Shown piece by piece: positions 44,225-64,000 of a stretch of 64,000 nt of DNA (position 1 is its first letter; every line of letters starts with the position of its first letter). The position numbers were made by a program, and so were the translations under genes. The stretch covers positions 223,127 through 287,126 of the forward strand of contig DATDRP010000001.1 in the NCBI GenBank assembly GCA_035291665.1, read 5' to 3'. Under the pieces are notes generated by a model. It was not told the origin of the DNA. It was given only the letters and a program-made list of their open reading frames with translations, and made no database searches. Origin of the DNA: Patescibacteria group bacterium (lineage in GTDB: Bacteria; Patescibacteriota; Microgenomatia; UBA8517).

Positions 44225-45038
44225 AAAAATCGTTTCCCCAAAATACGTTAAAAGGAAAATATTTACTTAATGGTGACAAATATAACATAAAATTATAAAC
44301 AGCATCTTTCCAAGATAACACCGTGTTATTTACAGTTACATTCGTTGAATGAATTTTGCCTTTAAAATTGGTTTGTTTGAATAAATTCCATAGTGAAATA
44401 TAATCAGGCTCATTGATATGCATTATCTTATGGTAATGAGTTCTAAACAATTTCGGATGAATTAATCTGGGATATTCCTTATTGAAGACAAATTTGTATA
44501 CAACAGATATAAATAAACTCACAGGATAACACCAATACTTGTATATATAGATATTAAACCATTTATTGGGTGCAGTATGAATAAATAACAATCCATCTTT
44601 TTTCAACAAGTTATTAATTTTCCCGAATACGACGATTTGCTCATCTGGATATAAATGTTCCAATACTTCCGTCATAACGACAAGGTCATATTTTTGGATT
44701 GTTTTTAACTTTTTAATATCTAAGTGCTTGAAAGCGACTCTTCGTTGTACACTTTTTGGCCATCTTCTTTTCGCATCAACAGCCAGTTTAATAGCATCTT
44801 CAGAATAATCGATTCCTAAAACTTTGCCTCCAGTAAGTTTCGACATCCACAAAGCGAGTTCACCTCTTCCACAACCGATATCCAAAATTCTCTGATCTAC
44901 TTTCAAAGGAATTAAATCAAGTATTTTTTTCAGACGTACATCAATTACTTTACCAAAAGTTTTTCCAAATATTTCATACCCCGACGCATCATTAAGGTAA
45001 TATTCTTTTGTATAAAGATTGGGTTCGACTCTTTTCAT
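44199..45038 (-). CDS. Class I SAM-dependent methyltransferase
   Basis: ILDIGCGRGELAL, VLGIDYSEDAI, LLKKDGLLFIHT. 279 aa. Confidence 0.75.
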   Translation of the reverse strand: MKRVEPNLYTKEYYLNDASGYEIFGKTFGKVIDVRLKKILDLIPLKVDQRILDIGCGRGELALWMSKLTGGKVLGIDYSEDAIKLAVDAKRRWPKSVQRRVAFKHLDIKKLKTIQKYDLVVMTEVLEHLYPDEQIVVFGKINNLLKKDGLLFIHTAPNKWFNIYIYKYWCYPVSLFISVVYKFVFNKEYPRLIHPKLFRTHYHKIMHINEPDYISLWNLFKQTNFKGKIHSTNVTVNNTVLSWKDAVYNFMLYLSPLSKYFPFNVFWGNDFYAILKKAC

Positions 45039-50913: not shown

Positions 50914-53568
50914 TTATTTACTAATCTCTTCCGAATAGGATTTTATAAGTTCAATCAGTCTTGCGTCGCCAAGATCAATTGGTGATATACCAAAATTGTC
51001 ATCCGACGAAAGCGACCAGTTCCACAGCAAGATCCCATCGACTTCTTTTGCTTTTGCCTGTTTCAAAAGTGATTCATACAGTGTGTATCGATCAATTCCC
51101 CCATTATCTTCAGGCTTTTTGGAAAAACCGACTTCTTCGATAAGAAGCGGTATTGATGCTGAATCAGAAAAATTATCCCACCTGGCGACCACCTCATGAT
51201 CAATCAAGGAACGCTCGGATTTTACATTATCAAGATAATAATGCGCTGTCATTACTGAAATTTCTGCTAAATTATCCAGATCATCAATCATCGGACCCGT
51301 TGCATATGGCATAAGTTCATTATCCGTCAGAAAGCCTTCTGACCCGGTAAGAATCAAATGCGACGGGTCGATCGATCTCACAAATTTCGACATCTCATCA
51401 ATCCAGCCGACAACTTTATCGGAAGCGGCTACGCTCGAGCTTCTGGGTTCGTTCATAAGCTCCCATGCAAAGACTACCGGGTCGTCCTTGTAGGCAACGG
51501 CGCTTAACGAATTCGATCTTGTGAGTATCTTAAAAACAAAATTTTTATAGATATTTTTTGATTTTTGAGAATCAAAAAACTTATCTTTATCAATAGCTTC
51601 AACTGATTTGATGCCATCCCATTCCAAATATTTATCAACTCCCCCATAAGCCTCCCAATAATTGGCAAAAACGGGAATAACTTTCATATCCAAACGGTCG
51701 GCAACTGCGAAAATATAGTCAATTGCAGCAAGCCTGTCCTCATTATAAACACCCGGTTCCGGTTGGATAGCGCCTTCAAAACCCTCTCCGAAGATCCAAA
51801 AACGAACAACTTTTATACCGTTGTCCTTCGCAGAGGATAAAGTTGCAGATATATCAGCCGGGGATTTGTATATAAGGTCATATGAATTTACGCCTATGAA
51901 TTTAAATTTTTTATCGTTCAGCCAAAGTTCGCCATTCTTCGCATAGATTGTGTCCCTGGGGTGTTCTTTTCTTTTGTAAATTATTAGGTCGTCAAATTCT
52001 TTGACCTCATCAAAAGTTCGCAAAAACTTTGAGTTGCCGTCTTTGACCAACTTAATATACATCGGATTGTACTCGTTGCCTTTTGGCAGTATGAGCCACG
52101 TTGCATAAATACTCGGATCGATAATTGACGTTTCCCAGTACCTGCCTGTTCCTTCATGGATATATCTTTTCAGGGGGAAACCCATATCAAAGGCTAAGGA
52201 ACTGTTAACCATTGATAACATAATCAGCTCATCATTATTATTCATATTCACTTTTGCCCAATCGGACACAACCCGGGTATTCGAAGCGCTCGAACCGATT
52301 AATCCGTCTTTCAGAGTAATTACGTAATTTTCTTTAATTAACATAATCGGCTGAATGATGATAAGAAGTACCGTGAAATATTTCATAAATTTGCTTTTCG
52401 AAATAAGATATGATATATAAACCGAAATTGCCGGTAACATCATCAAACCGTAGCGGACGTTGAAAATACCCGCGGTAGTCCCCAAGTACGGATCCAGAAC
52501 TAATTCTGGAACATTTATCGTTGAATAACCCTGGTACAAAGAAACAATATTAAAAATCATCGGTGTCATTAAAACTAAAAGCGATAAATTATTTACAAAA
52601 TCTTTCTTTCGTAAATAAATATAAAACCCAAATATCGTAAATAACGTGAAGAAAAAACCGAAATTGTCAACCAATGACCATCCATAAGTTAAAACAGCCA
52701 TAACCAAATCTTTTTTGGCATATAAACCGCCTGCTTTCTCAATTAATTCCTGTTGAGCATGCGCAGAGTATTGACCCAACGCAAAATAAAAAGGGTCTTT
52801 AAAAATAAAAGCATTCCAGACTATCCAAAGGGCAATCCCCAATCCGGAAAGAGTCATAAATAGGGAAAGTTTTCCAATCGTATTAGAAACAAAATTTTTT
52901 AATTCAATAGTTTTAACATTCCCCAAGCGTCTTGACAGGTAGGTTTTGACTTCAATCAGAAATAATATTAATCCCGTAAAAGCAAATTGGAACCAGCCGT
53001 CATATCTTGTTAAAATCGCGAAAAATAAATATAAAGACATTAACAAGATATCGTTTAAATGTTTTTCTTTTTCCCACTTGAGTAAGTGATATGCCGATGC
53101 CAAGGAAAAAAACATTAGGGGAACCTCTGTCATCGGTGTTGTCTGCATATATAGTACATTTAAGTTTGTGGCAAATATCAGAAATCCTAAGAAAGCAATA
53201 ATTTTATTTTTGAAAATATAATTAATCAAACCATAAACATATAAAGAAGCTAAGATATATGCGATCATTGAAAAGACGGCACCGGCTAGCCCTGTTTGCC
53301 AAAGCCAATCATTCCATACCAGCGTCATAGTTAAAACATGCGTCAGAGGAAGCCAAACCGAACCGAGTTGCGCCAAACCGGGTTTTAAATTATCTGTAAC
53401 CAAGCGGGCAATATTCATATGCGCTCTTGCATCGCTATAGGCAAGGATTATGTTGTACTTGAATGAAATAAAAAGAGAAATCAAGCTCAACACGATTGAG
53501 ATAGAAAAAATCAGCTTCCAAGTGGGTTTAAATTTAAATATTTTGAAATCGATTGTTTTACTTTTCAT
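50914..53568 (-). CDS. Fusion: N-terminal polytopic GT-C/ArnT-PMT-like membrane domain plus C-terminal GH5 glycoside hydrolase
   Basis: N-terminal ~480 aa has 10+ transmembrane helices, with the first loop AYSDARAHMNIAR resembling the ArnT/PMT DE-loop. C-terminal GH5: VRFWIFGEG, acid/base ELMNEPR, nucleophile region LLIEEVGFS. 884 aa. Confidence 0.65.
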   Translation of the reverse strand: MKSKTIDFKIFKFKPTWKLIFSISIVLSLISLFISFKYNIILAYSDARAHMNIARLVTDNLKPGLAQLGSVWLPLTHVLTMTLVWNDWLWQTGLAGAVFSMIAYILASLYVYGLINYIFKNKIIAFLGFLIFATNLNVLYMQTTPMTEVPLMFFSLASAYHLLKWEKEKHLNDILLMSLYLFFAILTRYDGWFQFAFTGLILFLIEVKTYLSRRLGNVKTIELKNFVSNTIGKLSLFMTLSGLGIALWIVWNAFIFKDPFYFALGQYSAHAQQELIEKAGGLYAKKDLVMAVLTYGWSLVDNFGFFFTLFTIFGFYIYLRKKDFVNNLSLLVLMTPMIFNIVSLYQGYSTINVPELVLDPYLGTTAGIFNVRYGLMMLPAISVYISYLISKSKFMKYFTVLLIIIQPIMLIKENYVITLKDGLIGSSASNTRVVSDWAKVNMNNNDELIMLSMVNSSLAFDMGFPLKRYIHEGTGRYWETSIIDPSIYATWLILPKGNEYNPMYIKLVKDGNSKFLRTFDEVKEFDDLIIYKRKEHPRDTIYAKNGELWLNDKKFKFIGVNSYDLIYKSPADISATLSSAKDNGIKVVRFWIFGEGFEGAIQPEPGVYNEDRLAAIDYIFAVADRLDMKVIPVFANYWEAYGGVDKYLEWDGIKSVEAIDKDKFFDSQKSKNIYKNFVFKILTRSNSLSAVAYKDDPVVFAWELMNEPRSSSVAASDKVVGWIDEMSKFVRSIDPSHLILTGSEGFLTDNELMPYATGPMIDDLDNLAEISVMTAHYYLDNVKSERSLIDHEVVARWDNFSDSASIPLLIEEVGFSKKPEDNGGIDRYTLYESLLKQAKAKEVDGILLWNWSLSSDDNFGISPIDLGDARLIELIKSYSEEISK

Positions 53569-55111
53569 AATTATTTTTTAAGTCTTTTGTTAATATTATT
53601 AACGTCGGTAGTGACAATACTAAAACAATTAAAGCAACGAGTGCTATATAAAAGGTTCTTGCATCAGTATATGATTTCAAATAATTCTGAAATACAAACG
53701 ATTTTGATTTTCCTTCAAAGATTAATAGAATGTTCCTATCAAAAGAATACAACTCAGTTCTACCCGTCACCAATTGAAGACCGATTGCTTCATATTTAGG
53801 AGGATTTTTACTTGATGATATGGCTCCGGCAGTATTAACTGCTACCGAATAAATAAGAGCTAAATAAAATACTGCAAACAAGAATTTGTTTTTATTTTCA
53901 GATAAAAATGTTGAAAGAAGAATTGACAGCATCGCATAGGAAGGTACCAAGTAGCGGGACCCGAAAGACCATCCGCCTATTCCGAAAGATGAATATAGTG
54001 AAATATTGGTGATTGTAACTGACAATAACAAATAAGTAAAAGCTTTATTTTTCTTTCTCAAATTATTGATGCCTAAAAGTCCGAAAATAAGTACCGGAGT
54101 GAAAAAAAGTAATCCCCTGTCAACACTTAAAAGGTGCTCATATGCCCCCTGCGGTATATAGCTTAAATTAAATAATCCGCTGATTGATTTTCCGTCTGAA
54201 CTTTCCGATTCTTCTTCGCTTAACTCCTCAAACTTTTTTAATTGCGTGACTGATCCTGATAATTTGAACGGATTGCCATAGGAGTATTTATTAAATAACA
54301 GTAACGCCGATAAAGGTATAAGGATCGCAATTATTGGCAGTATCTGTTTTAAAGATAGAGTAAATCTAATTCTGTCTTCAGTTGCGGCGACATTGAATAA
54401 CCGGACTACTCCCAAAATTCCAACCGGCAATAACATAAAGAAATTGGGGAAATCAATAATAATTGATAACGAGCAAATGAAAAAAACAAAGATTATTCCT
54501 AAGAATCTTTTTGAAGTTAACAGAATATAACATGCCAAAAGCAATAAAAATGTTGACACATGATGCTGGAATAACGACACCGCATATGTAAAGGCTGGTG
54601 TTGCAAAAATAAAAATACCTGAACTAATCAATGAAACCGCCTTATTTGATGTCAACCTGAGGCAGATTTTATAAATTACAATTGTATTAAGAAATGCAAA
54701 TAAAGTAATAACCAAATAACCCCCAAGTTGTGTTGCATTAAATAACTTACCCAAATAAAATCCGGGAATTAATAAATATGAGATACCGGGAACAAACAAT
54801 GATACAAATTTTCCATTCACATAACCTAAATCCGGTAAAGAAAATTTCGCCAGCTCGTTATCCAGGAAAATTGATTTATTCTCTAAAATCGAATACGTCA
54901 GGGCAAAACGCGCCCGTTCAGGCGAAAGTTCAAAAGGACCGCTATCGGACCATTCTTTCAAATTTAATTCAGTTTCATTCGGGACTCCCGGTAGTCCGCG
55001 AACACTAAGCAAAAGAATTAATAAAATAAAAAAGAAAAAAACAGCAGTTATCAATCGTTCAATTAGTTTCATATTTTCATTTAGTTGTTGCGACAATTTC
55101 CCATATTCCAC
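53558..55111 (-). CDS. GT-C-like polytopic membrane glycosyltransferase (GT39/ArnT-like)
   Basis: 517 aa with about 12 transmembrane helices and the typical large first periplasmic loop. Confidence 0.5.
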   Translation of the reverse strand: MEYGKLSQQLNENMKLIERLITAVFFFFILLILLLSVRGLPGVPNETELNLKEWSDSGPFELSPERARFALTYSILENKSIFLDNELAKFSLPDLGYVNGKFVSLFVPGISYLLIPGFYLGKLFNATQLGGYLVITLFAFLNTIVIYKICLRLTSNKAVSLISSGIFIFATPAFTYAVSLFQHHVSTFLLLLACYILLTSKRFLGIIFVFFICSLSIIIDFPNFFMLLPVGILGVVRLFNVAATEDRIRFTLSLKQILPIIAILIPLSALLLFNKYSYGNPFKLSGSVTQLKKFEELSEEESESSDGKSISGLFNLSYIPQGAYEHLLSVDRGLLFFTPVLIFGLLGINNLRKKNKAFTYLLLSVTITNISLYSSFGIGGWSFGSRYLVPSYAMLSILLSTFLSENKNKFLFAVFYLALIYSVAVNTAGAISSSKNPPKYEAIGLQLVTGRTELYSFDRNILLIFEGKSKSFVFQNYLKSYTDARTFYIALVALIVLVLSLPTLIILTKDLKNNYEK

Positions 55112-55973
55112 GATTAATTTTTGATCGTTTTTTTGTCAGATCGGAATATTTATTAACAAGAAAAATATATACCGCCAATAGAGGGTGTTTTAAAAATTCT
55201 TCAATTCCATACCGCAGATACATCGATTTCGGTATTGAAAGTTCCCGGTCAACCAGATTTTTAGGGAAGATATCATATAGCTGTTCTTTGCTTAACTTGA
55301 ATCTGCGTGCCTGCTTGATATGGTCCTTTAATGAAGATGGCAGATTGTAATAAACAACCGCCTCCGGCACAAATCGATATACAAAACTTTCTTGAATGCA
55401 TTTCAGGTAAATATATCTGTCGTTACATACTACATTTCCGGGAATCGATGCTATGTTTTTGATGAATTCCCGTCTGAATGCAAGCATTGGTCCGGTTGCA
55501 GAAAAGATGTTGTTTCCACCCCGGAGAGTTCTTTTTATTTTTCGATAGATATTTACCGATAACAGATTCGCTCTCGCAATAAGCGATGTGCTTTCTACTG
55601 GAACAATATCACCCCCGCACATTGAAATACGTTCATCTGAACGCATTACCCTTACAACGCTTTCGATTGTGTGTTCAGAAAACACTACATCAGCATCCGT
55701 TTGTATCAAAATATCACTATCAAACTTTTTATATAACTCCCGCAGCCTCGTCATCTGACCAAGGTTGTCTTTGTTGTCAACAATTTCTATCTTCGGATTT
55801 TTAAGATTTTGGACAATTTCAACAGTTTTGTCGGTGGACCCATCAGAAATAATTAATACCTTATTGAGCTTGAAGTTTCGGCCTTTCTGCCTCACAACAG
55901 AGTTGATAAACTTGAGAATATTTCTTTGCTCATTAAAGGCGCTCAAACCCACTGTTACGGATAGCGTTTTCAT
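55077..55973 (-). CDS. Glycosyltransferase family 2
   Basis: LSVTVGLSAFNEQ...IISDGSTDKT...QTDADV. 298 aa. Confidence 0.8.
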   Translation of the reverse strand: MKTLSVTVGLSAFNEQRNILKFINSVVRQKGRNFKLNKVLIISDGSTDKTVEIVQNLKNPKIEIVDNKDNLGQMTRLRELYKKFDSDILIQTDADVVFSEHTIESVVRVMRSDERISMCGGDIVPVESTSLIARANLLSVNIYRKIKRTLRGGNNIFSATGPMLAFRREFIKNIASIPGNVVCNDRYIYLKCIQESFVYRFVPEAVVYYNLPSSLKDHIKQARRFKLSKEQLYDIFPKNLVDRELSIPKSMYLRYGIEEFLKHPLLAVYIFLVNKYSDLTKKRSKINRGIWEIVATTK

Positions 55974-55975
55974 AT

Positions 55976-56890
55976 TCAGATTTTCTTGGAACTTAAAGAA
56001 AAATCCCAGATTGAATATCTCCTATTGGAGTATTTTTTGTTAAAAAAATTATATATATAAATTAATATATAACCTAAAAATAAAGGATGTGTAATAATAT
56101 TTTTCAGGAATGCATAAACCCATATTAATACCGGTACCTTATATTCTTTTTCAATGAGATTTTTATTGTATATTTTTAGAAGTTTTTTCTTTCCCTCATA
56201 ATATCTATCACTTTGTTTTTTATAATCCTGGAAAACGGATGGAGATCTGAATATTATTTTCGGTTTTTTAATAAACTTAAAAAGAAAGCCCTTTTTCAAA
56301 CATTTCAAATATGAATATGCATCTTCAGGGTATTTATCATCCCAAACAAAATTTTTATAAAATCTTCTAAAAAATAGTCTTCCCCTACCGTGACACATAT
56401 AAATATTGTTGCCTTGTTTCCAGGTTTTATATGCAAATTTCTTAAATTCCCGTCCATCGACTATTACCCTTTCAAAAAATGATTTCGGGGTGGCGCTGAC
56501 TGTTTCAACACTGACTATCCCGACATTATCTTTATCGAATAATTTAATCTCACTTATTAAATTTTCTAAAAAATATTTATCAGGAAGTAATACATCCGCG
56601 TTCAATAAGAGTAAAAGATCGGAATTCGATTTCTTTATTATTTCGTTTTGAACGTTTGGCTGACCACTCCTTTTATTCATAATCATGTATTCAAACTTAG
56701 TGTGTTTAATGGTTTTTAATATGGTGTTGGTATTGTCAGTCGAAGAATCTGAAACAACTAAAATTTTTTGGAGTTCAAAGTTATACTCCTTTTGTAAAAA
56801 CAGGCTTTTTATAATCTTTTCAATATTACCCTCCTCATTATAAGCGGGAATTCCTATTGTTAATGTTGGTTTGTTATTTCTATTTACCAT
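55976..56890 (-). CDS. Glycosyltransferase family 2
   Basis: LTIGIPAYNEEGNI...VVSDSSTDNT...LNADVLL. 304 aa. Confidence 0.75.
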   Translation of the reverse strand: MVNRNNKPTLTIGIPAYNEEGNIEKIIKSLFLQKEYNFELQKILVVSDSSTDNTNTILKTIKHTKFEYMIMNKRSGQPNVQNEIIKKSNSDLLLLLNADVLLPDKYFLENLISEIKLFDKDNVGIVSVETVSATPKSFFERVIVDGREFKKFAYKTWKQGNNIYMCHGRGRLFFRRFYKNFVWDDKYPEDAYSYLKCLKKGFLFKFIKKPKIIFRSPSVFQDYKKQSDRYYEGKKKLLKIYNKNLIEKEYKVPVLIWVYAFLKNIITHPLFLGYILIYIYNFFNKKYSNRRYSIWDFSLSSKKI

Positions 56891-58496
56891 TGGTCGAAAT
56901 TATTTTTTTTATATACAAAAATGTAGGTGAAATTTTTAATTTGAATAAATCTTCACCGTCATTGTGTTTTACATTAATTCTTTGAATTTTAAATCGGTTG
57001 TCTTTTAATTTTGAATAATAATTATTTTCTGTTGTAAACGCTGCTTTAAATTTATTTACCTTTAATAATTTAACCATATTTTCATTGTGTTGTCCGTGAG
57101 GATAAGCAAAATATTTAGTTTTTATTCCAATATATTTTGACAGTAACATTTTTGACAAAATAATATCAACCGAAGCTTCTTCCGGGCTTATTTGGGTCAT
57201 ATCCCGGTGAGTATGGTTATGGGATCCGATCGTCCACCCTTCGGCTTTAAGGCGTTTCAAATCGAGTACATTCAAATATACTTTACCTTGTTTCTTATTC
57301 ATCAAATTATTGCTATTTATAAACACAGTTGGTTTGATAGCCAATTTATTTAGTTCTTCAACAATAGACAAAACACTCTTCAATCCGTCATCAAATGTAA
57401 GCATATAATTTCCTTTGAACTTATTTGCGAAGCTGAAAAATCTGTCAGGAAGAACGAATCGATATATATTGTTAATATAATTAATCTGACGAATAAAAGT
57501 GTTCTTGTCTACCGTATAGTCATCGTCATGATTTCCTATTTCATGATAATTAATTACTAATAAATCAATCTTTCTGACAAGAAATTTATCGCTCAAGGCA
57601 AATATTAATACGCTGAATTTAATACTAAACTTAACAAGTGTATCGATTGTTTTTTGGTTCTTTTGATATATCATTCCAACAATAAAGGCAATCAATTCAA
57701 TAAGTTTGACAAAACAATAACCAAAAAATACAAACGGTTCTTTGTAAATGTTCTCAACGTTTTTGAAAATATTCTTGATACTTCTGTCATACAAATTTAT
57801 TCTTTTTATCCCTTCAGTTCCTTTTGAGGCCACCCTGATGGAATAAAATCCCATCCAAAATTTTTTAATCATACTTTGGATCAATGTAAAATGGTCAAAA
57901 GATATATGAATTGGATTTTTTAAACGGCTAATTTTTAAGTTTTTCTTGTTTAAATTAATCCAAAATCCCCATTCATCAGATTGGCCGTAAAATTTGTTAA
58001 AAGGAAGCTGATGCTCAGAAAAAAGAGATCTTTTGAAAATCCTGGGAGTTTCTGAGTTCTGGTCTTTTACATAGAGACCCTTTTCGAACGTATAAATTCT
58101 GGACAAAACATTTTTATTGATAATCCCTTTTTCGGTTATATAATAAGCATCGGCAATCATTCGTAAACTCAAAATTTCATCTACCAGCTCTTTTGTCAAA
58201 ATCATATCGTGATCAATATATAAAATATATTTTCCCGATGAGTTCAGGAAACCTTTATTTCTTGCATCATTTTTTTCACCCTGGAAAGTTATAAATTTCA
58301 AATTATGAAGTTTGTAGCTTTTAATCAGATCGGCAACTTCTCCTCCGGCGACAATCACCAATTCCACCAAATTGCTTTTAATTTCTGAAAGAGCTTTTAA
58401 GCACTCTTTCAACTGCATCGGATTACCTTTTATACAAAGATTTATAGATATTTTACGATTTTGAAGAGTTTTCATATTATTCTTTCTCCGTTGCAA
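56880..58496 (-). CDS. Fusion: GT2-like N-terminal domain plus C-terminal polysaccharide deacetylase (CE4/NodB)
   Basis: N-terminus VIVAGGE...YIDHDM (GT2-like). Membrane segment. C-terminal NodB motifs LTFDDGLKS...HNHTHRD. 538 aa. Confidence 0.7.
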   Translation of the reverse strand: MQRRKNNMKTLQNRKISINLCIKGNPMQLKECLKALSEIKSNLVELVIVAGGEVADLIKSYKLHNLKFITFQGEKNDARNKGFLNSSGKYILYIDHDMILTKELVDEILSLRMIADAYYITEKGIINKNVLSRIYTFEKGLYVKDQNSETPRIFKRSLFSEHQLPFNKFYGQSDEWGFWINLNKKNLKISRLKNPIHISFDHFTLIQSMIKKFWMGFYSIRVASKGTEGIKRINLYDRSIKNIFKNVENIYKEPFVFFGYCFVKLIELIAFIVGMIYQKNQKTIDTLVKFSIKFSVLIFALSDKFLVRKIDLLVINYHEIGNHDDDYTVDKNTFIRQINYINNIYRFVLPDRFFSFANKFKGNYMLTFDDGLKSVLSIVEELNKLAIKPTVFINSNNLMNKKQGKVYLNVLDLKRLKAEGWTIGSHNHTHRDMTQISPEEASVDIILSKMLLSKYIGIKTKYFAYPHGQHNENMVKLLKVNKFKAAFTTENNYYSKLKDNRFKIQRINVKHNDGEDLFKLKISPTFLYIKKIISTNGK

Positions 58497-61400
58497 ATGC
58501 AGGTGCAGCTTGGGTTATTTTATGTTCATGAATATTCATAAGAATATTCAAAAACCTTTCTGACTGTACTACCCAAGAATAATTTCTGGACCATTCATAG
58601 GCGTTTTTTGAAAGGATCTTCCTGTATCCGTCCATTGTTGTCAGTCCGACAATCGCTTTAGCTAAGATATCAGAATTTTCCAAAGGCACCAAAAGGCCCG
58701 TTAAGCCGTCGGCAACGGAATCCCGAAGCCCGTTTGTGTCTGAAGCGATCACCGGTGTTCCCGACGCATTTGCTTCAACAACAGTAATTCCCCACCCTTC
58801 AAAAGATGAAGGCTGGATCATTGCCCAGGAACGGGCAAGGATTTCTCTTTTTTCCTTTTCACTCACAAAACCTTTAAATTCAATATTTTCCTGCAAACCA
58901 AGCTTCTCGGTTAACAATTTGAGCTTTTCTTCCGATTCTCCCCGTCCGGCAACTATAAATTTCGCATTGGGTATATCTTTTACAACATCTCTGAAAGCTT
59001 TAATTGCAATGTCAACATTTTTATAATCCATCACACGACCCAAATATGAATATGTTGGTACTTCATATTTTTTCATTCTTGAAAAATCTCTCAAATTAAT
59101 TCCCGGATTAATGACATTGATGTTTTCACCGAGAGTCATATTTTCCTTGAGAATATCGTTTTTACTGGACTCCGATACGGTAACAACTTCAACATTTCTA
59201 TACACATTGGGCATCAGTTTCCCTTCAAGAAAACTTGCAAAATACGAAAACGGAAAAATGAGGTGTTTCCTGAAAATTGCCTGATGAACATGATGAATCA
59301 GAAGAACTTTTGGTAAATTTGAAAACAATGGTGAATAAAAAGGAATCCCATTTTCACAATCGACGACAAAGTCAAATTTTCCTCTCATTTTCAGAATATA
59401 ATATATCGGTACCCAAGCATATAAAGTAAAAAACCCGCCTCTTCGTATAATATTAACTCCTTTCAATTTTTCGTCGAATTTGTTTTTACCGTCATTGCCG
59501 CAGAATATTGTTACTCCGTAGCCCTTTTTGACCCACTTTTTTGCAAGCTCGTTAACATATACTTCAGCACCACCTGCCCATCTGTGCTTTATGTCTCTCC
59601 AGTTAAGGATAAGAATATTCAGTCTATTATCTGAATGTGAAACATTTAAAGGCTTTAGCAAATACAATAAAGACACCAGGTTAATCCTCAATGACGTCAT
59701 TTTTACAGTCAGAATATGAAGTGCAAATGTTGAGACAAAATACGATAGCGATGCTGCATAGATAGAACTGACAATTTGTCCAATAGTATCGTGGTTTTGA
59801 ATGATGTATAAAACCTCAAATGCGCTGATCAAAAAACCCAAAAGAGAAAAAGAGTACTGCTTTTTGACTTGGTGATAGGAAACAATTGTCGTTGCCAGAG
59901 TAAACGCAGCAATCGCAAGCGCATAATGCGGTAGATATTCAATAATCTGATAAGCTTTATTTCCAAATAGAAATGGCGCAGAAAGGGTTGAAAATACACC
60001 CAATCCGATATACGAAATTACGATAACTCCGAAGGTTAACCCAAAGATAGCATAAAATGTTTTTAAGCTATCTTTACCTTCACCAATTTTCCTGGCAACC
60101 ACAGGTGTAACAAAACTCGGGAAGAGACTTCCCAAAAAGAAGATCATTTTTCCGCAAAGGGAAAGTATTGCATATTTCCCGGCACTTTCCGGATCCAGAA
60201 GAAAAGTTGCCAATACAACATCAGCGCTCAAAAAGAATGCGACTGTAAACCTATTCAAAAGAGTTGTCAAATAAAATTTGAAGGGAAAATCCGCTTTTAC
60301 TTTAACCCCCCTGCGAATTTTGTTTTCGGGTATTTTCGAAACAATAAACCAGCCAATCAGGAGCGACATAAATAATGAAAACGGCTGATTGTAATAAATG
60401 AGATTAACATTACCAAGAGTTACGGACACAAACGCACCCAGCAGTTTGATAATCGGTACAATAATAGTAATCGCAGCCAGCATGTTGAACTTATGGTTAC
60501 CGCTTAAAAATCCCTGATCAACTGCGGTAATTGCAGAAATAATCAAAGTCGGTGCAACAACGAACAAGGCTAAATCGTTATCATACAAACCCTTTTCTGA
60601 TAAGAATAGCGAACCTATTGCCCAAATAATTCCTACCGGAAGTAATATCAAAAAAGCATATTTTCTGTATTTTGACCAATAATCTTTCCTAATGCCTCCG
60701 CGCCTACCCAATAAATATGCAGCTTTGTAAGAAACTGTGATCAACAGCGTTGCCGTTACGACACTTATAATAAGGTATGCATTAGTCATCAGGCTGGCTG
60801 ATCCGAATTCGGAATAAGTCAAAACCCTACCCAAATAGGCGTTATAAATGTAATTAAGGATGTTGGCGATAATATTCGAAACAATTAAAAGTCCTCCCCC
60901 GAATAGCAAAGTATTAACTTTTCCGAAGATATTGATCGGACTCAAGCGGTTTTTTACTGCAGAATAGCTTGTAAACTCGTGAGAGTCGGATTTCGAATCA
61001 TAGAGAATTTTTTCGGTTGGTTTTTTATTAAAAGTTAATACATTAACGTTGGGAATTAAATTTTTAAGATATGCAAAAGAAATATTAATTTTCGGAAATT
61101 CAAACGTTGGAATAATTGTAATTTCAGGAATAAATGCAACTTTAACTTTGTTCTCGGCTTGTAAATGCAAACCATGTTTGGTTTTCTCCCAATAGTATGG
61201 TTTTGCGATTAATTGATAAAAAGCAATAAAGGCAGCCACGAATGAAAGCATCCAATAAAAAGGAATAAAAAATACATACTGTATTAAGTTCCAATAATTG
61301 CGTTTAGCAAGTCCAATCATATTGGAATAAAAATATGTAAAATTTCCGAAAACCATTGTAAAGACTGCGATATAGAAAATATAAGGCGGATACAAAGCTT

Positions 61401-63288
61401 GAATTTGCGGACCCACAAATCGGTAGAGTGTAAAATAAGCAAGCGTCATCAGCCATAAAAACGGATTAATCAGAATAAATACCATTCTCATTGCTATGAT
61501 CAACTGAAAAAGAACAGCATGCAGTTTAAATTCCCTGAAAAACTCTACAGGTTTACGCATATGAACAAAATATGTTTGCATGTATCCTTTGATCCAACGG
61601 GAGCGTTGTCTTATCCAGCTTTTTATTTTACTATTGGCTTCTTCGAAAGTTACGGAATCAATAATCGCACTTTTATACCCTTTTTTAAATAGCCTTGTTC
61701 CCAAATCACAATCTTCCGTAACATTAAATGCATCCCAGCCGTTTAAAGATTTCAAAACCTCTGTTTTAAAATGATTGCTGGTTCCCCCAAGAGGAATGAA
61801 GGTATCAAAAGACTGAAGACCGGGAAGAGCAATATCAAACCAGAATGAATACTCGGAAGTGAACAATTTGGTCAACAAATTCTGATCCTGATTATAGTAA
61901 TTAAGTTTTGATTGAAGACAAATTGTATTCCTGTCTACCTGCCTGAAAGCAAGAAATGCTTTTTTGAGCTGCAATGGATCGGGTTTATCCTCTGCATCAT
62001 AAATAACAAGATAATCACCTGTTGCTTGATTCAGACCGAAATTACAGGCTTTGGGTTTAGTCTTTGGAAGTGAGGCCGGTACAATTAATATTTTATAATA
62101 AGGAGGAAGCTTCAGATCATACGCTTTATTAATAGTAACCGTGTCATCTTCCTCCAAAAGTAGCAACACTTCAAGTTTGTCTTTCGGCCAATCTATTGAT
62201 TCAATTCCTGATACAAATTGTTTTATAACTTCAGCCTCTTTGTATAAAGGACATAAAATAGTGTAGACGGGTAATTTACTGTCATCTATGTCTGCAATCT
62301 GTGATGGCGAAATTGAGATTTCTTTTGATTTCTTCAAAGATCGGAAAATAGTCACGCCTGTAAACAAAAAATCCGATAAATAGATATACGACAATATTCC
62401 TATCAACAACGTAAGTGTTACTTTAGTAAAAAATATAAGTCCGATGACAAACGTAAATCCAAAAAAAGTCAAAACCAGTTTTTGAATCGGTGTAAAGGTT
62501 TTAACTGCCGATAGTTCAGGATCAAGAGCGGAGTGTGTAATATATTTCTTTCCATTGAAAAAATATCCTTGACCGTCGATACTATCAAACTTATATGCTT
62601 TATTCCCCCTGAGCTTAAGTTTTATCGATTCCCCAGCAATTTGTTTGCCCGCTTTTATAAAATCTATTTTTGAAATACCGGCTTTACGCGGTGAAAAACT
62701 AATTTTTATTGTATCAATTTTGTATCCACTTGCCAGGCACGCTTTAAGGATCGGCATGTCGATTGTCCATTCTTTCACATCGTTTTCACTCAGAAGATCG
62801 ATAACTTCGTGCCTGAAAGCCTTAAGTCCCGATTGAGTATCGCAATCAAATCCGTGAAGTAACTTCTCAAAAATGAGCTTATTCATTGCACTACCCAAGC
62901 GTCTTAGGATTGAGGTCTTTTTACCTGATCTATTCGCGACAACTACTCCAGTATTCTCATCCTCGAGCTTCTGAAGCATTTCAGGAATGGCTTCAGGAGG
63001 ATATTGAAGGTCTCCATCGATCATAACCAGCATCTTTCTGTCTGAAACACTTGAGGCTTCCAAAATGCTGTAAGCTTTTCCCTGACGACCTTTTTTCGTT
63101 AAAAGAATAATTGGGTAAAACTGCTTCAATGCCGAAACCATTGATGCCGTGTTATCCTCGGAAAGGTCGTCCACAAATATAATCCTATATTCATATTTAC
63201 TAGCCAAACTAACATGAATGCGTTTGACCAGTTCAAATATATTTTGTGCTTCATTTTTTACCGGAACAATTACATCAACCTTATTCAT
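58477..63288 (-). CDS. Giant multidomain synthase: GT2, processive GT2 (D, DxD, TED, QxxRW), about 14 transmembrane helices, GT4
   Basis: 1603 aa. Domain 1: VIVPVKNEAQNI...FVDDLSEDNT...IDGDLQYP. Domain 2: ILCPLYKEAEV, YDAEDKPDP, VTEDCDLG, QRSRWIKG, which is the cellulose/chitin/PNAG-synthase motif set. Long polytopic region. C-terminus EGWGITVVEANASGTPVIASDTNG (GT4 E-x7-E). Confidence 0.75.
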   Translation of the reverse strand: MNKVDVIVPVKNEAQNIFELVKRIHVSLASKYEYRIIFVDDLSEDNTASMVSALKQFYPIILLTKKGRQGKAYSILEASSVSDRKMLVMIDGDLQYPPEAIPEMLQKLEDENTGVVVANRSGKKTSILRRLGSAMNKLIFEKLLHGFDCDTQSGLKAFRHEVIDLLSENDVKEWTIDMPILKACLASGYKIDTIKISFSPRKAGISKIDFIKAGKQIAGESIKLKLRGNKAYKFDSIDGQGYFFNGKKYITHSALDPELSAVKTFTPIQKLVLTFFGFTFVIGLIFFTKVTLTLLIGILSYIYLSDFLFTGVTIFRSLKKSKEISISPSQIADIDDSKLPVYTILCPLYKEAEVIKQFVSGIESIDWPKDKLEVLLLLEEDDTVTINKAYDLKLPPYYKILIVPASLPKTKPKACNFGLNQATGDYLVIYDAEDKPDPLQLKKAFLAFRQVDRNTICLQSKLNYYNQDQNLLTKLFTSEYSFWFDIALPGLQSFDTFIPLGGTSNHFKTEVLKSLNGWDAFNVTEDCDLGTRLFKKGYKSAIIDSVTFEEANSKIKSWIRQRSRWIKGYMQTYFVHMRKPVEFFREFKLHAVLFQLIIAMRMVFILINPFLWLMTLAYFTLYRFVGPQIQALYPPYIFYIAVFTMVFGNFTYFYSNMIGLAKRNYWNLIQYVFFIPFYWMLSFVAAFIAFYQLIAKPYYWEKTKHGLHLQAENKVKVAFIPEITIIPTFEFPKINISFAYLKNLIPNVNVLTFNKKPTEKILYDSKSDSHEFTSYSAVKNRLSPINIFGKVNTLLFGGGLLIVSNIIANILNYIYNAYLGRVLTYSEFGSASLMTNAYLIISVVTATLLITVSYKAAYLLGRRGGIRKDYWSKYRKYAFLILLPVGIIWAIGSLFLSEKGLYDNDLALFVVAPTLIISAITAVDQGFLSGNHKFNMLAAITIIVPIIKLLGAFVSVTLGNVNLIYYNQPFSLFMSLLIGWFIVSKIPENKIRRGVKVKADFPFKFYLTTLLNRFTVAFFLSADVVLATFLLDPESAGKYAILSLCGKMIFFLGSLFPSFVTPVVARKIGEGKDSLKTFYAIFGLTFGVIVISYIGLGVFSTLSAPFLFGNKAYQIIEYLPHYALAIAAFTLATTIVSYHQVKKQYSFSLLGFLISAFEVLYIIQNHDTIGQIVSSIYAASLSYFVSTFALHILTVKMTSLRINLVSLLYLLKPLNVSHSDNRLNILILNWRDIKHRWAGGAEVYVNELAKKWVKKGYGVTIFCGNDGKNKFDEKLKGVNIIRRGGFFTLYAWVPIYYILKMRGKFDFVVDCENGIPFYSPLFSNLPKVLLIHHVHQAIFRKHLIFPFSYFASFLEGKLMPNVYRNVEVVTVSESSKNDILKENMTLGENINVINPGINLRDFSRMKKYEVPTYSYLGRVMDYKNVDIAIKAFRDVVKDIPNAKFIVAGRGESEEKLKLLTEKLGLQENIEFKGFVSEKEKREILARSWAMIQPSSFEGWGITVVEANASGTPVIASDTNGLRDSVADGLTGLLVPLENSDILAKAIVGLTTMDGYRKILSKNAYEWSRNYSWVVQSERFLNILMNIHEHKITQAAPAFATEKE

Positions 63289-63608
63289 AGAAAAAAAAAT
63301 AGCCTCAACGGCTATTAAATAATTATAGGATATTATACTTAATTAAGTCTTCAAAATCAAGCTAAAAGGTCAATATGTTGACAATATTTACTCATATTAA
63401 ATTGCTGGCAGGATGTTTCTATACTTTATGGGTTAATAACCGTTTAGAATAACCCCGTTATAACCTGCGAAAACAGTATATCAATTCCGTGTCTATAATC
63501 AAGAAACATTAAATAAAATCCTACGAAGGTATTAGAAAATAAAGTTTTTTATTTGAGAAAATGGAAGCTTTCAAACTGTGAATCACACTCAAACTTTGGC
63601 CATGAACT

Positions 63609-64000
63609 TTATGATTTGTTGCTTTTTATTTTATCGGCCATATAATTATTAACCTTAAGGAGCGATTCAAACGTTCCCGCATCTTCCCACAAACCATCAA
63701 TTATATTCACTTTCAGATTACCTTTCTTCAGATAAATATTATTTATATCAGTAATTTCCAACTCACCGCGTTTTGATGGTTTTAAATTTTTTGAATAACT
63801 GACAACTTTTGAATCATAAACATATAACCCGGTAACTGCAAAATTACTTTTGGGTTTATTCGGTTTTTCCTCAATACTTACTGCTTTCATTTGCGAATCA
63901 AACTCGACTACGCCAAACCTATCCGGATCCGGAACTTTTTTGGCAAATATCATACCGCCACTCCGGAATTTCTCAATATCCGATTCAAAATTATCATCAA
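63609..64000 (-). CDS. rmlA: Glucose-1-phosphate thymidylyltransferase-like sugar nucleotidyltransferase (C-terminal part; N-terminus beyond the window end)
   Basis: In-frame upstream translation continues to the window edge (DDNFESDIEKFRSGGMIFAKKVPDPDRFGVVEFD...), matching the RmlA core and C-terminus. Confidence 0.7.
   Translation of the reverse strand, partial: DDNFESDIEKFRSGGMIFAKKVPDPDRFGVVEFDSQMKAVSIEEKPNKPKSNFAVTGLYVYDSKVVSYSKNLKPSKRGELEITDINNIYLKKGNLKVNIIDGLWEDAGTFESLLKVNNYMADKIKSNKS

What the first reader, a model, noticed from the sequence alone, without database searches (positions are those of the whole stretch)
58477..63288. 1603-aa single-polypeptide synthase: GT2 + processive GT2 (QRSRW/TED) + ~14 TM helices + GT4
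The second domain carries the complete motif set of processive beta-glycan synthases such as BcsA, PgaC, NodC or HasA: D in LLLEEDD, DAED, VTEDCDLG, QRSRW. It is followed by a long polytopic region that could form the translocation channel. It is flanked by a non-processive GT2 at the N-terminus and a GT4 (E-x7-E) at the C-terminus. Such a four-module fusion would prime, polymerise, export and decorate within one protein, and is far larger than canonical synthases.
Basis: partly seen in the sequence, partly recalled or inferred. Interest (0 to 1): 0.75.

Follow-up and report, generated by a model that had tools for sequence, protein, structure and literature searches.

The report
Four-enzyme glycan assembly fusion protein
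A real, conserved 1603-residue membrane protein of an uncultured Patescibacteria (CPR) bacterium joins a cellulose-synthase-like polymerase, a separate lipid-sugar flippase and two further sugar transferases in one chain, which matters because synthase-type and flippase-type glycan export are normally separate routes.

Summary
At least 116 full-length four-module homologues at 43-58% identity rule out an assembly artefact. The exact protein is in NCBI as a generic 'glycosyltransferase' of a Patescibacteria MAG.

The same modules occur as separate adjacent genes or in other fusion combinations in other CPR genomes, so this is a fused operon. The synthase core extends to Bacillota, Actinomycetota and Chloroflexota, where it carries MshEN domains. 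In 58 of 80 loci it lies within 8 kb of a GT-C gene.

Beta-mannanase (GH5, GH113) and ManC-like neighbours point, tentatively, to a beta-mannan backbone decorated outside the cell from flipped lipid-linked sugars. No paper describing the fusion was found in seven searches. I rate it a new variant of known kinds, interest about 0.62.

The parts
62569..63288 (-). Module 1 (aa 1-240): GT-A glycosyltransferase of the polyprenyl-phosphate sugar synthase type (ArnC/DPMS/GtrB-like)
   Evidence: PF00535, 109 bits. Seven of the nine PDB sequence hits (max E 0.001), and the best seven, are ArnC (9hwj, E 6.7e-17), P. furiosus Dol-P-Man synthase (5mlz, 1.2e-14) and GtrB (5ekp, 3e-7). NCBIfam matches to ArnC, AglJ and PgfS are all sub-threshold. 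D41, D91-x-D93 and D150-x-QSG are invariant wherever the module is present.
61144..62526 (-). Module 2 (aa 255-715): self-contained membrane GT2 synthase. Two N-terminal TM helices (aa ~267-319), GT-A domain with EEDD/DAED/TED/QRSRW, interface helices, four C-terminal TM helices (aa ~589-695), invariant W700-E-K-T-x-H-G706
   Evidence: AF2 pLDDT 88.8, pTM 0.86. Foldseek: BcsA 1.4e-16, Xenopus HAS1 9e-15, Chlorella virus HAS 5e-14, Chs1 1e-9, over 455-530 columns. Motif-by-motif alignment to BcsA. Profile against PDB: BcsA 1.6e-22. Motifs invariant in 61 sequences. This is the most conserved part of the protein (58% mean identity).
60922..61143 (-). Linker (aa 716-789): variable, predicted disordered, presumably cytoplasmic
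   Evidence: pLDDT below 50 at the ends of both models. Only 10-20% column identity, the lowest in the protein.
59653..60921 (-). Module 3 (aa 790-1212): 12-TM MOP-superfamily transporter, Wzx/PST-like (putative lipid-linked sugar flippase)
58477..59616 (-). Module 4 (aa 1225-1603): GT4 (GT-B fold, retaining) glycosyltransferase
   Evidence: PF00534 137.7 bits and PF13439 46.5 bits. PDB sequence hits PimA 1.6e-16, MshA-like 6.7e-15, TarM 2.9e-13. E1497-x7-E1505 invariant.
56880..58496 (-). Downstream gene, overlapping the big ORF by 20 nt: GT2 + CE4 polysaccharide deacetylase (538 aa)
   Evidence: PF00535 and PF01522. NCBIfam PdaB/PgdA/IcaB/PgaB-type hits, all sub-threshold. CE4 deacetylase genes in 12 and PIG-L deacetylase genes in about 17 related CPR loci.
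55077..56890 (-). Two GT2 genes (304 and 298 aa)
   Evidence: PF00535. Homologous to the GT2 runs downstream of the fusion in L001 and L003.
53558..55111 (-). 517-aa polytopic protein, putative GT-C-type glycosyltransferase (LA_3751/LA_3752 family)
   Evidence: NF047440 E 5.6e-16, sub-threshold. Homologues downstream of the fusion in L003 (38% identity, E 1e-110) and L001 (32%) and in most CPR loci. No Pfam or PDB sequence hit.
50914..53568 (-). 884-aa protein: N-terminal PMT_2-like GT-C membrane domain + C-terminal GH5 beta-1,4-mannanase-like domain
   Evidence: PMT_2 25.4 bits (just below the cut-off of 26.1), PF00150 E 1.1e-16. The GH5 part gives 16 PDB hits to beta-mannanases/mannosidases, best 2.5e-43, and no cellulase. 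The same fusion is present in L084, L045, L004 and L068.
49915..50871 (-). GT2 gene (318 aa), last gene of the syntenic block
   Evidence: PF00535 E 1.2e-25. In the same position as the 315-aa GT2 of L084.
63609..64000 (-). Upstream gene cut by the window end: RmlA-like sugar-1-phosphate nucleotidyltransferase
   Evidence: PF00483 E 3.9e-28, profile positions 135-243 only. The frame stays open to base 64000. rmlA-D-like genes flank the fusion in L001 and L084.
63298..63360 (-). Promoter-like site (63360-63332) and hairpin with T-run (63316-63298) in the 320-nt spacer upstream of the start codon
   Evidence: Consensus scan only. The promoter-like count is no higher than in shuffles. One terminator-like site was found against 0.2 expected.

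Best explanation
The ORF is a genuine four-module inner-membrane enzyme, produced by fusing neighbouring genes of a cell-envelope glycan operon.

Module identities:
- Module 2 is a self-sufficient BcsA/hyaluronan-synthase-type GT2. It polymerises a beta-linked glycan on the cytoplasmic face and threads it out through a pore made by its own six TM helices.
- Module 1 (ArnC/DPMS/GtrB type) loads a sugar onto polyprenyl phosphate.
- Module 4 (GT4) makes or extends a lipid-linked sugar.
- Module 3 is a separate 12-TM MOP (Wzx-like) flippase that moves such lipid-linked sugars to the outer face.

Proposed pathway: outside the cell, the GT-C enzymes encoded just downstream (the 517-aa protein and the 884-aa GT-C+GH5 protein) use the flipped donors to decorate, and the GH5 domain to trim, the exported polymer. 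One polypeptide would thus couple a synthase-dependent backbone route to a flippase-dependent lipid-linked decoration route. The backbone is tentatively a beta-1,4-mannan.

Shown: the ORF, the four module identities at family or fold level, conservation of the catalytic motifs, that the fusion is widespread and also occurs split, and the co-occurrence with GT-C, mannanase and deacetylase genes.

Inferred: that all soluble domains are cytoplasmic (from even TM counts), processivity, which lipid-linked species is flipped, coupling to the GT-C enzymes, and the identity of the polymer.

My probabilities: module identities about 0.9; coupled synthase-plus-flippase pathway about 0.45; beta-mannan about 0.3.
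For: Modules:
- Pfam, NCBIfam and PDB sequence hits.
- Confident AF2 models of modules 2 and 3.
- Clean fold matches to BcsA/HAS/Chs and to MOP transporters.
- Catalytic motifs of all three GT modules, and polar TM residues of the MOP block, invariant or nearly so in 61 sequences.

Fusion of an operon:
- L031 has syn, MOP, GT2 and GT4 as separate adjacent genes.
- L032, L038, L041 and L053 have syn (or GT2+syn) followed by a MOP+GT4 protein.
- L006, L014, L022 and L026 lack the MOP block. L004 is syn+GT4. L013, L019 and L020 lack module 1.
- This MOP subfamily is most often stand-alone or MOP+GT4.

Coupling to GT-C and polyprenyl-phosphate sugar:
- A GT-C gene lies within 8 kb in 58 of 80 synthase loci, across phyla.
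- In Ktedonobacteraceae the synthase is fused to a PMT_2 domain.
- Full-length PgfS/ArnC-type GT2 genes adjoin the synthase in Paenibacillus and Clostridium.

A true exopolysaccharide-type synthase: non-CPR orthologues at 45-49% identity carry 1-6 MshEN domains (Pfam). MshEN is a published c-di-GMP receptor domain found fused to glycosyltransferases, and the c-di-GMP-controlled synthase NfrB carries one (PMC5013675, PMC8669469).

Mannan lead:
- The GH5 domain on the conserved GT-C partner hits only beta-mannanases and mannosidases, and the fusion recurs in four other loci.
- GH113 genes lie next to the synthase+PMT_2 gene in four Chloroflexota loci.
- ManC-like genes lie next to the MshEN-synthase in seven Bacillota loci.
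- The archaeal mannosyltransferase PcManGT is among the sequence hits.
Against: - Nothing here tests any activity.
- The module 2 scores against curated models are far below their cut-offs: PgaC 111.6 bits against 422.3, CelA 56.8 against 699.1. Product and processivity cannot therefore be read from membership.
- QxxRW-bearing GT2 enzymes are not always processive (my background knowledge). PcManGT, with a minimal cellulose-synthase-like fold, is also a hit.
- The query's own PF01943 match is sub-threshold. The family's MOP profile does not detect the window's stand-alone PF13440 flippase.
- The CPR loci carry dTDP-rhamnose genes and CE4/PIG-L deacetylases rather than ManC. That fits rhamnose- and GlcNAc/GlcN-containing glycans at least as well as mannan.
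- My 'N_GT2' HMM also hits ordinary PF00535 GT2 genes. ArnC-type neighbours are verified only in L060 and L069.
- No model of the whole protein was made, so contacts between modules are unknown.
Confidence: 0.6

Rival explanations
1. One flippase-dependent assembly line with no polymer-extruding synthase. Module 1 primes on polyprenyl phosphate. Module 2 (a non-processive enzyme with a minimal cellulose-synthase-like fold, as in PcManGT) and module 4 each add sugars to the lipid-linked intermediate. Module 3 flips the finished unit. The downstream GT-C-like proteins polymerise it or transfer it to the wall.
For: - PcManGT (6yv7) is a significant sequence and fold hit for module 2.
- This MOP subfamily is habitually fused to cytoplasmic GTs: MOP+GT4, MOP+GT2, MOP+GT4+GT2.
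- Module 1 is of the polyprenyl-phosphate GT type.
- GT-C-like genes follow the fusion.
Against: - The best relatives of module 2 by sequence and fold are channel-forming processive synthases, matched over the TM helices as well.
- D/DxD/TED/QRSRW and the C-terminal WEKTxHG motif are invariant.
- Orthologues outside CPR are MshEN-fused and often have only a GT-C and an ArnC-type GT2 as partners, with no member of this MOP or GT4 subfamily nearby.
- A polymer-degrading GH (GH5 mannanase, GH113) accompanies the locus, as cognate hydrolases do for known synthases such as BcsZ and PgaB (the comparison is from my background knowledge).
Confidence: 0.25
2. The MOP block is not a lipid-linked sugar flippase. 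It is either a MATE-like ion-coupled exporter of a small molecule or soluble oligosaccharide, or a non-transporting scaffold that tethers the GT4 to the synthase.
Against: - No PF01554 (MatE) hit was reported, while PF01943 is found in the query and, above threshold, in relative P0160.
- The block is always embedded in glycan loci and fused to glycosyltransferases.
- Polar intramembrane residues are conserved.
- Where the fused block is degenerate (L025, L039), an intact stand-alone copy lies next door. This argues the transport function is needed.
Confidence: 0.1
3. One reading: the roughly 14-TM region after the QRSRW domain is an enlarged BcsA-like translocation channel sitting over the GT2 active site.
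For: Its position directly after the synthase domain. No direct structural test of the whole protein was possible.
Against: - A poorly conserved, disordered linker of about 75 residues separates it from the synthase.
- It is absent from many otherwise complete orthologues and encoded as a separate gene in others.
- The synthase module has its own six TM helices, which match those of BcsA and HAS.
Confidence: 0.03
4. Assembly artefact, frameshift fusion or pseudogene.
For: None found.
Against: 116 colinear four-module homologues on independent contigs and closed genomes. The exact sequence is found on 4 contigs. All catalytic motifs are intact.
Confidence: 0.01

Closest known systems
Membrane-integrated processive GT2 synthases (BcsA, hyaluronan synthases, chitin synthases, PgaC, NodC)
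   Same: Module 2 has the D, DxD, TED and QxxRW motifs at aligned positions. It has a GT-A domain flanked by TM helices. Its best sequence and fold matches are to these enzymes.
   Different: It has no PilZ domain and no BcsB or PgaD partner was seen. Scores are far below the curated PgaC and CelA cut-offs. It forms its own subfamily, defined by KPKACN[YF]G, PLGGTSNHF and a C-terminal WEKTxHG. Here it is fused to three other modules.
E. coli NfrB (c-di-GMP-activated, MshEN-containing exopolysaccharide GT2; PMC8669469)
   Same: A distant full-length similarity covering DAED, TED, RQ(R/K)SRW and the C-terminal W(E/D)KTxH. Non-CPR orthologues of module 2 also carry MshEN domains.
   Different: Only 19% identity, and the profile score is no better than to PgaC. 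MshEN is N-terminal in the orthologues but C-terminal in NfrB, and it is absent from the CPR protein.
Three-component extracytoplasmic glycosylation systems (GtrA/GtrB/GtrC; streptococcal GacI/GacK/GacL; CsbB/GtcA/YfhO) and the ArnC/ArnD/ArnEF/ArnT pathway
   Same: A GtrB/ArnC-type GT2, a flippase and GT-C enzymes are encoded together, here alongside a deacetylase as in Arn. Streptococcal GacK is, from my recollection, also a Wzx-family flippase.
   Different: Here the GT2 and the flippase are covalently fused to a polymer synthase and a GT4. The acceptor polymer would be made by the same polypeptide. None of these roles has been tested.
Wzx/PST flippases of the MOP superfamily (WzxE, MurJ, TacF)
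   Same: 12-TM MOP fold. Weak PF01943 similarity in the query, above threshold in relative P0160. Glycan-locus context.
   Different: It is a small separate subfamily: 123 clusters at E <= 1e-30 among 1.84 billion representatives. It is habitually fused to glycosyltransferases. A profile of it does not detect the window's own canonical flippase.
GPI-anchor and mycobacterial PIM/LM/LAM assembly (PIG-A or PimA GT4, PIG-L deacetylase, a flip, DPM1/Ppm1, then GT-C mannosyltransferases)
   Same: The same enzyme classes occur together: GT4, PIG-L or CE4 deacetylase, DPM1-like GT2, flippase and GT-C. The pathway comparison itself comes from my background knowledge.
   Different: This is an analogy of logic only. 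No orthology was shown, the lipid acceptor is unknown, and those pathways have no BcsA-like synthase.
Plant CSLA beta-mannan synthases (GT2)
   Same: Possibly the same product class, if the mannanase and ManC associations reflect the polymer.
   Different: No specific sequence relationship was tested. No paper describing a bacterial beta-mannan synthase turned up in the library search.

Membership tests
Processive membrane GT2 synthase superfamily (BcsA/HAS/CHS/PgaC/NodC) | GT-A domain with D, DxD, TED and QxxRW at the catalytic positions | tested here: met
   Alignment to E. coli BcsA pairs LEEDD with LDDG, DAED with DCDH, TED with TED, and QRSRW with QRIRW. All are invariant in 61 sequences.
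Processive membrane GT2 synthase superfamily (BcsA/HAS/CHS/PgaC/NodC) | TM helices on both sides of the GT domain, plus interface helices, forming the glycan channel | tested here: inconclusive
   The AF2 model has 2+4 TM helices and interface helices. Foldseek aligns 455-530 columns to BcsA and HAS. Coordinates could not be inspected, so an open channel was not seen.
Processive membrane GT2 synthase superfamily (BcsA/HAS/CHS/PgaC/NodC) | Processive polymerisation coupled to translocation | not testable with these tools
   Needs in vitro synthesis in proteoliposomes.
Cellulose synthase BcsA proper | C-terminal PilZ domain, BcsB partner, and a CelA model score above its cut-off | tested here: not met
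   No PilZ in Pfam. TIGR03030 scores 56.8 bits against a cut-off of 699.1. No BcsB-like neighbour among the annotated genes.
PNAG synthase PgaC/IcaA | TIGR03937 above its cut-off; a small partner subunit (PgaD/IcaD) | tested here: not met
   111.6 bits against a cut-off of 422.3. The core profile scores only 25.7 bits on E. coli PgaC. A CE4 deacetylase is adjacent, but it is not PgaB (26 bits against 322).
NfrB-type MshEN-GT2 | An MshEN domain on the same chain and close similarity to NfrB | tested here: not met
   No MshEN in the query. 19% identity to NfrB. MshEN is present only in non-CPR orthologues.
MOP superfamily transporter | MOP fold: two 6-TM bundles around a central cavity | tested here: met
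PST/Wzx family (Pfam PF01943 Polysacc_synt) | A match to the family model at the gathering score | tested here: inconclusive
   The query scores 20.9 bits against a cut-off of 28.2, but over profile positions 4-246 of 274. Relative P0160 scores 32.0 bits. PF01943 is precomputed for about a fifth of the listed homologues.
PST/Wzx family (Pfam PF01943 Polysacc_synt) | Translocation of a polyprenyl-linked saccharide | not testable with these tools
   Needs a flipping assay or genetics.
Polyprenyl-phosphate glycosyltransferases (GtrB/ArnC/DPMS) | GT-A with DxD, closest by sequence to this subgroup | tested here: met
   The best seven of nine PDB hits are ArnC, PfDPMS and GtrB. D91-x-D93 is invariant. 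NCBIfam matches to ArnC, AglJ and PgfS are all below their equivalog cut-offs.
Polyprenyl-phosphate glycosyltransferases (GtrB/ArnC/DPMS) | Juxtamembrane helices and a C-terminal TM anchor of its own | tested here: inconclusive
   A TM hairpin follows at aa ~267-319. It is modelled as the N-terminal pair of the synthase module, and module 1 itself was not modelled.
GT4 retaining glycosyltransferases | GT-B fold domains PF13439 + PF00534 and the E-x7-E motif | tested here: met
   137.7 and 46.5 bits, both above their cut-offs. E1497 and E1505 are invariant. PimA, MshA and TarM are the top PDB hits.
Three-component (GtrB-type GT2 + flippase + GT-C) glycosylation system | All three components encoded together | tested here: met
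   Modules 1 and 3 together with the 517-aa (NF047440) and 884-aa (PMT_2-like) proteins. A GT-C gene lies nearby in 58 of 80 loci. The GT-C assignments rest on sub-threshold or borderline scores, and the flippase is MOP-type, not GtrA-type.

The most novel reading that the evidence does not exclude
The protein is the most condensed form of an unrecognised envelope-glycan system found in Patescibacteria, Bacillota, Actinomycetota and Chloroflexota. In it, a BcsA/HAS-like synthase makes and exports a beta-mannan-type backbone. A dedicated lipid-linked branch (polyprenyl-phosphate sugar synthase, MOP flippase, GT-C enzymes, a cognate mannanase) modifies that backbone outside the cell. Microgenomates would then have physically fused a synthase-dependent route and a flippase-dependent route, and module 2 would be the first bacterial beta-mannan synthase.
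Probability: 0.25. Interest if true: 0.85.

Novelty: new variant of a known kind. Interest (0 to 1): 0.62.

Why it matters
Bacterial surface polysaccharides are conventionally assigned to separate export routes: synthase-dependent, Wzx/Wzy-dependent or ABC-transporter-dependent. A conserved protein that joins a complete synthase to a complete MOP flippase, a polyprenyl-phosphate sugar synthase and a GT4 argues that the two logics cooperate on one product.

The many split and re-fused versions act as a natural Rosetta stone for which components work together.

The fusion also marks a large uncharacterised synthase subfamily. At least 599 loci were found among GTDB species representatives. Outside CPR the subfamily carries MshEN domains, which suggests c-di-GMP control, and it has cultivable members (Paenibacillus, Clostridium drakei, Nocardioides) in which the chemistry could be worked out.

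For CPR bacteria, whose envelopes are almost unstudied and which live attached to hosts, this is probably a major surface-glycan machine.

Tried and rejected
- Sequence search of the polytopic block against the PDB found nothing, even at E 10. Its identity came only from the structure model.
- A profile of the family's MOP block did not detect the window's stand-alone PF13440 flippase. I therefore claim superfamily membership firmly and Wzx/PST membership only tentatively.
- I considered PgaC/PNAG identity because of the adjacent CE4 deacetylase. I rejected membership on the scores.
- I considered NfrB membership. I rejected it because similarity is only distant.
- The 517-aa protein has no PDB or Pfam hit. 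Its GT-C assignment rests on one sub-threshold NCBIfam model and on synteny.
- Seven literature searches found no description of this fusion, nor of a bacterial beta-mannan synthase. The one candidate paper (PMC12419801) is unrelated.
- My 'N_GT2' HMM proved unspecific: it also hits ordinary GT2 genes. I count only the two neighbours verified with NCBIfam as ArnC/PgfS-type.
Whether the modules touch was therefore not tested.

Full report
**1. The observation**

The ORF listing returns a single ORF at 58477..63288 on the minus strand: 1603 aa, ATG start, no internal stop.

Pfam places three glycosyltransferase modules:
- PF00535 (GT2) at aa 6-126.
- PF13641/PF13632 (GT2) at aa 342-620.
- PF13439 + PF00534 (GT4) at aa 1239-1566.

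- EEDD at 379-382, DAED at 431-434, TED at 524-526 and QRSRW at 561-565.
- The GT4 E-x7-E at E1497/E1505.

The only correction is the number of TM helices. The hydropathy scan and the two structure models give six helices in the synthase module and twelve in the following block, about 18 in all.

The ORF is not an assembly product.
- A search of 5.8 billion proteins returns more than 120 homologues of 1376-1604 aa at 43-58% identity, from Woese-, Roizman-, Ames- and Gottesmanbacteria and unnamed Microgenomates.
- 116 of the 120 contain all four modules in the same order.
- Some lie on closed genomes of about 1 Mb.
- The exact sequence is NCBI HLE48717.1, 'glycosyltransferase [Patescibacteria group bacterium]', on a 519-kb contig.

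**2. What each module is**

*Module 2 (aa 255-715).*
- phmmer against the PDB finds E. coli BcsA (7lby, E 2.3e-10). The alignment pairs LEEDD with LDDG, DAED with DCDH, TED with TED and QRSRW with QRIRW.
- A profile of 14 stand-alone cores raises this to 1.6e-22. It also finds Rhodobacter BcsA, PcManGT and Xenopus HAS1.
- An AF2 model of aa 255-745 is confident (pLDDT 88.8, pTM 0.86). It shows two N-terminal TM helices, a GT-A domain, interface helices and four C-terminal TM helices.
- Its best Foldseek matches are BcsA, hyaluronan synthases and chitin synthases, over 455-530 alignment columns, so the membrane part matches too.
- The module is not a member of the curated PgaC or CelA families: 111.6 bits against a cut-off of 422.3, and 56.8 against 699.1.
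- It is about equally distant from E. coli PgaC and NfrB. With NfrB it shares a C-terminal W(E/D)KTxH motif, which is invariant in the family. That this motif could be the counterpart of the gating-loop motif of hyaluronan and chitin synthases is my speculation.

*Module 3 (aa 790-1212).*
- This block has no sequence match in the PDB. Scanned alone, it gives a sub-threshold but nearly full-length match to PF01943 Polysacc_synt (E 2.6e-4, profile positions 4-246 of 274).
- The AF2 model of aa 760-1235 is confident (pLDDT 86.5, pTM 0.84).
- All 50 listed Foldseek hits are MOP-superfamily transporters.
- The block is separated from the synthase by the least conserved, disordered stretch of the protein (aa ~716-789).
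- It is therefore an independent 12-TM MOP module, not a BcsA-type channel.
- Several polar residues inside its helices are invariant or nearly so: N809, N812, N816, R821, K948, D1023, K1047, H1139 and Q1140.

*Module 1 (aa 1-240).*
- The seven best of its nine PDB sequence hits are ArnC, the P. furiosus dolichyl-phosphate-mannose synthase and GtrB.
- NCBIfam's best matches are ArnC, AglJ and PgfS, all sub-threshold.
- These are all enzymes that load a sugar onto a polyprenyl phosphate.

*Module 4 (aa 1225-1603).* It is an ordinary GT4, closest to PimA, MshA and TarM.

*Topology.* Both membrane modules have an even number of TM helices, so all four soluble domains can sit in the cytoplasm. This is an inference.

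**3. A fused operon**

A scan of one genome per GTDB species with two conserved peptides of module 2 (PLGGTSNHF and KPKACN[YF]G) found at least 599 loci. I reconstructed the ORF at 80 of them and scored the modules. In CPR genomes the core occurs in these forms:

| Architecture | Size (aa) | Example loci |
|---|---|---|
| synthase alone | ~480-535 | L030, L031, L037, L040 |
| GT2 + synthase | ~720-815 | L007, L027, L034 |
| GT2 + synthase + GT4 | ~1160-1200 | L006, L014, L022, L026 |
| synthase + GT4 | 993 | L004 |
| synthase + MOP + GT4 | ~1240-1500 | L013, L019, L020, L023, L024 |
| all four modules | ~1530-1620 | L005, L009, L010, L012, L015, L018, L021 |

Split versions keep the gene order.
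- L031 has synthase, MOP, GT2 and GT4 as four separate genes.
- L032, L038, L041 and L053 have the synthase followed by a MOP+GT4 protein.
- Where the fused MOP block is degenerate (L025, L039), an intact stand-alone copy follows.

An exhaustive search with the MOP block finds a small subfamily: 123 clusters at E <= 1e-30 among 1.84 billion representatives. Its members are mostly stand-alone (~405-470 aa) or MOP+GT4 (~800-835 aa). Others are MOP+GT2, MOP+GT4+GT2, MOP+GT4+GNAT or MOP+kinase-like. One MOP+GT2 member passes the PF01943 gathering score.

The 1603-aa protein is thus the union of a 'GT2 + synthase' unit and a 'MOP + GT4' unit.

**4. Conserved partners**

In the window, the fusion is followed on the same strand by:
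- a GT2 + CE4 deacetylase gene, overlapping the fusion by 20 nt;
- two GT2 genes;
- a 517-aa polytopic protein (LA_3751/LA_3752 putative glycosyltransferase family);
- an 884-aa protein with a PMT_2-like GT-C domain and a GH5 domain;
- another GT2 gene.

An RmlA-like gene lies upstream and is cut by the window end.

The same set recurs next to homologues.
- L001, L003 and L084 show the same set, with rmlA-D-like genes in L001 and L084, and PIG-L deacetylases fused to GT2 or GT4 in L003 and L084.
- Across the 80 loci, a member of one of the two GT-C families lies within 8 kb in 58: 35 of 45 CPR-type loci and 23 of 35 others. Several of the exceptions are short contigs.

Outside CPR, the 45-49%-identical synthase core differs in its extensions and neighbours.
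- It carries one to six N-terminal MshEN domains in Paenibacillus, Clostridium drakei, Nocardioides, Paraconexibacter and Chloroflexota. MshEN is a published c-di-GMP receptor domain (PMC5013675) and is also present in the c-di-GMP-controlled synthase NfrB (PMC8669469).
- In Ktedonobacteraceae the core is fused to a C-terminal PMT_2 domain.
- In Paenibacillus and C. drakei the adjacent GT2 is a full-length PgfS/ArnC-type enzyme (252 and 105 bits to PgfS).

In one lineage or another, then, the synthase is fused to each component of a 'polyprenyl-phosphate sugar synthase + flippase + GT-C' system. This is the main argument that these components act on the synthase's product.

**5. A lead on the polymer**

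- The GH5 domain of the 884-aa protein hits only beta-1,4-mannanases and mannosidases in the PDB: best E 2.5e-43, 16 such hits, no cellulase.
- The GT-C+GH5 fusion recurs in L084, L045, L004 and L068.
- All four Chloroflexota loci with a synthase+PMT_2 fusion have an adjacent GH113, a beta-mannanase family.
- Seven Bacillota loci have a gene whose best match is mannose-1-phosphate guanylyltransferase next to the MshEN-synthase.
- Known synthase systems carry a hydrolase for their own polymer, such as BcsZ and PgaB (my background knowledge). An inverting GT2 using GDP-alpha-mannose would make beta-mannosidic bonds.
- A beta-mannan backbone is therefore a reasonable hypothesis, at about 0.3.
- Against it: the CPR loci carry rhamnose-pathway and deacetylase genes rather than ManC, and nothing was measured.
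- The co-occurrence of GT4, PIG-L or CE4 deacetylase, flippase, DPM1-like GT2 and GT-C also recalls the logic of GPI and mycobacterial PIM/LM/LAM assembly. This is an analogy only.

**6. Mechanism, rivals and novelty**

*Best explanation (module identities about 0.9; pathway about 0.45).* The protein is a hub in which a self-contained synthase polymerises and exports a beta-glycan. Modules 1, 4 and 3 make and flip lipid-linked sugars, which the neighbouring GT-C enzymes then use outside the cell.

*Main rival (0.25).* Module 2 is non-processive, like PcManGT, and the whole protein is a flippase-dependent assembly line.

*Minor rivals.*
- A non-flippase role for the MOP block (0.1).
- An artefact (0.01).

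*Novelty.* No paper in the held library describes the fusion, nor the MshEN-synthase/GT-C system beyond NfrB. Every module belongs to a known superfamily and the sequences are already in public databases under generic names. I therefore rate it a new variant of known kinds rather than categorically new.

*Interest: 0.62.* A specialist would find a covalent synthase-flippase fusion surprising, and would be interested in the wide, cultivable family it points to. All functional statements remain inferences.

Noticed in passing
window 50914-53568 (-): An 884-aa protein fuses a PMT_2-like GT-C membrane domain to a GH5 domain. The GH5 domain's PDB hits are all beta-1,4-mannanases or mannosidases (best E 2.5e-43). 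The same fusion is found in L084, L045, L004 and L068.
   Followed up: yes
window 56880-58496 (-): A GT2 + CE4 (PF01522) deacetylase fusion overlaps the 3' end of the 1603-aa ORF by 20 nt. This stretch has the lowest GC of the window (28% at 56-58 kb). Related CPR loci carry a CE4 and/or a PIG-L deacetylase, sometimes fused to GT2 or GT4.
   Followed up: partly
window 35186-46258 (-): A second, classical Wzx/Wzy-type glycan locus: a Wzy_C protein, three GT2 genes (one of 755 aa), a GT4, two methyltransferases, a PKD / 3-keto-disaccharide-hydrolase-like protein and a stand-alone PF13440 flippase (E 9e-65). A profile of the fused MOP block does not detect this flippase.
   Followed up: partly
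window 47683-49887 (+): A 734-aa Kelch/PKD/Ig-like repeat protein lies on the opposite strand, in a patch of higher GC (43% against 30-36% on either side). It interrupts the minus-strand glycan gene array.
   Followed up: no
window 63298-63360 (-): A 7-bp hairpin followed by a T-run ends 10 nt before the ATG of the big ORF, downstream of a promoter-like TTGATT-17-TATAAT. It could be the terminator of the upstream rmlA-like gene or a leader element. There is no clear Shine-Dalgarno sequence at normal spacing.
   Followed up: no
L057 5259-9398; also L066, L069, L060, L080, L054: Non-CPR orthologues of the synthase core carry N-terminal MshEN domains. L057 (Chloroflexi) has six copies, with an MshEN E-value of 3.7e-90. 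Paenibacillus macquariensis (L069) has two tandem sets, each of a ManC-like gene, an MshEN-synthase and a PgfS-like GT2.
   Followed up: partly
L048-L050, L052 (Ktedonobacteraceae and other Chloroflexota): Synthase core fused to a C-terminal PMT_2 GT-C domain (970-1002 aa), each with an adjacent GH113 gene.
   Followed up: partly
P0150, P0134, P0154, P0160, P0180, P0241: The same MOP subfamily is fused to other cytoplasmic domains: an APH-like phosphotransferase, APH+GrpB, GT4+GNAT acetyltransferase, GT2, GT4+GT2 and GT2+GT4.
   Followed up: partly
L006-L011, L013, L021, L024, L029, L034, L036, L038, L040-L042, L044, L051, L053, L059 (record titles): Contigs with CPR-type fusions (50-62% identity to the query core) are titled 'uncultured Gammaproteobacteria', 'Bdellovibrionales' or 'Pseudomonadales'. 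These are probably mislabelled bins. One contig is 1.0 Mb, a typical CPR genome size.
   Followed up: no
P0001, P0002, P0006, P0013; L084: The four closest relatives of the query in modules 2-4 (53-58% identity) lack the N-terminal GT2 and have a short unrelated N-terminus instead. L084 is otherwise syntenic with the window: rml genes, GT4+PIG-L, a 512-aa protein, GT-C+GH5 and a GT2.
   Followed up: partly
window 29266-34464: Three tRNA genes: Asp-GTC (29266-29340, -), Gly-CCC (33206-33277, +) and Thr-CGT (34391-34464, +). No other Rfam family reaches its gathering score in the window.
   Followed up: no
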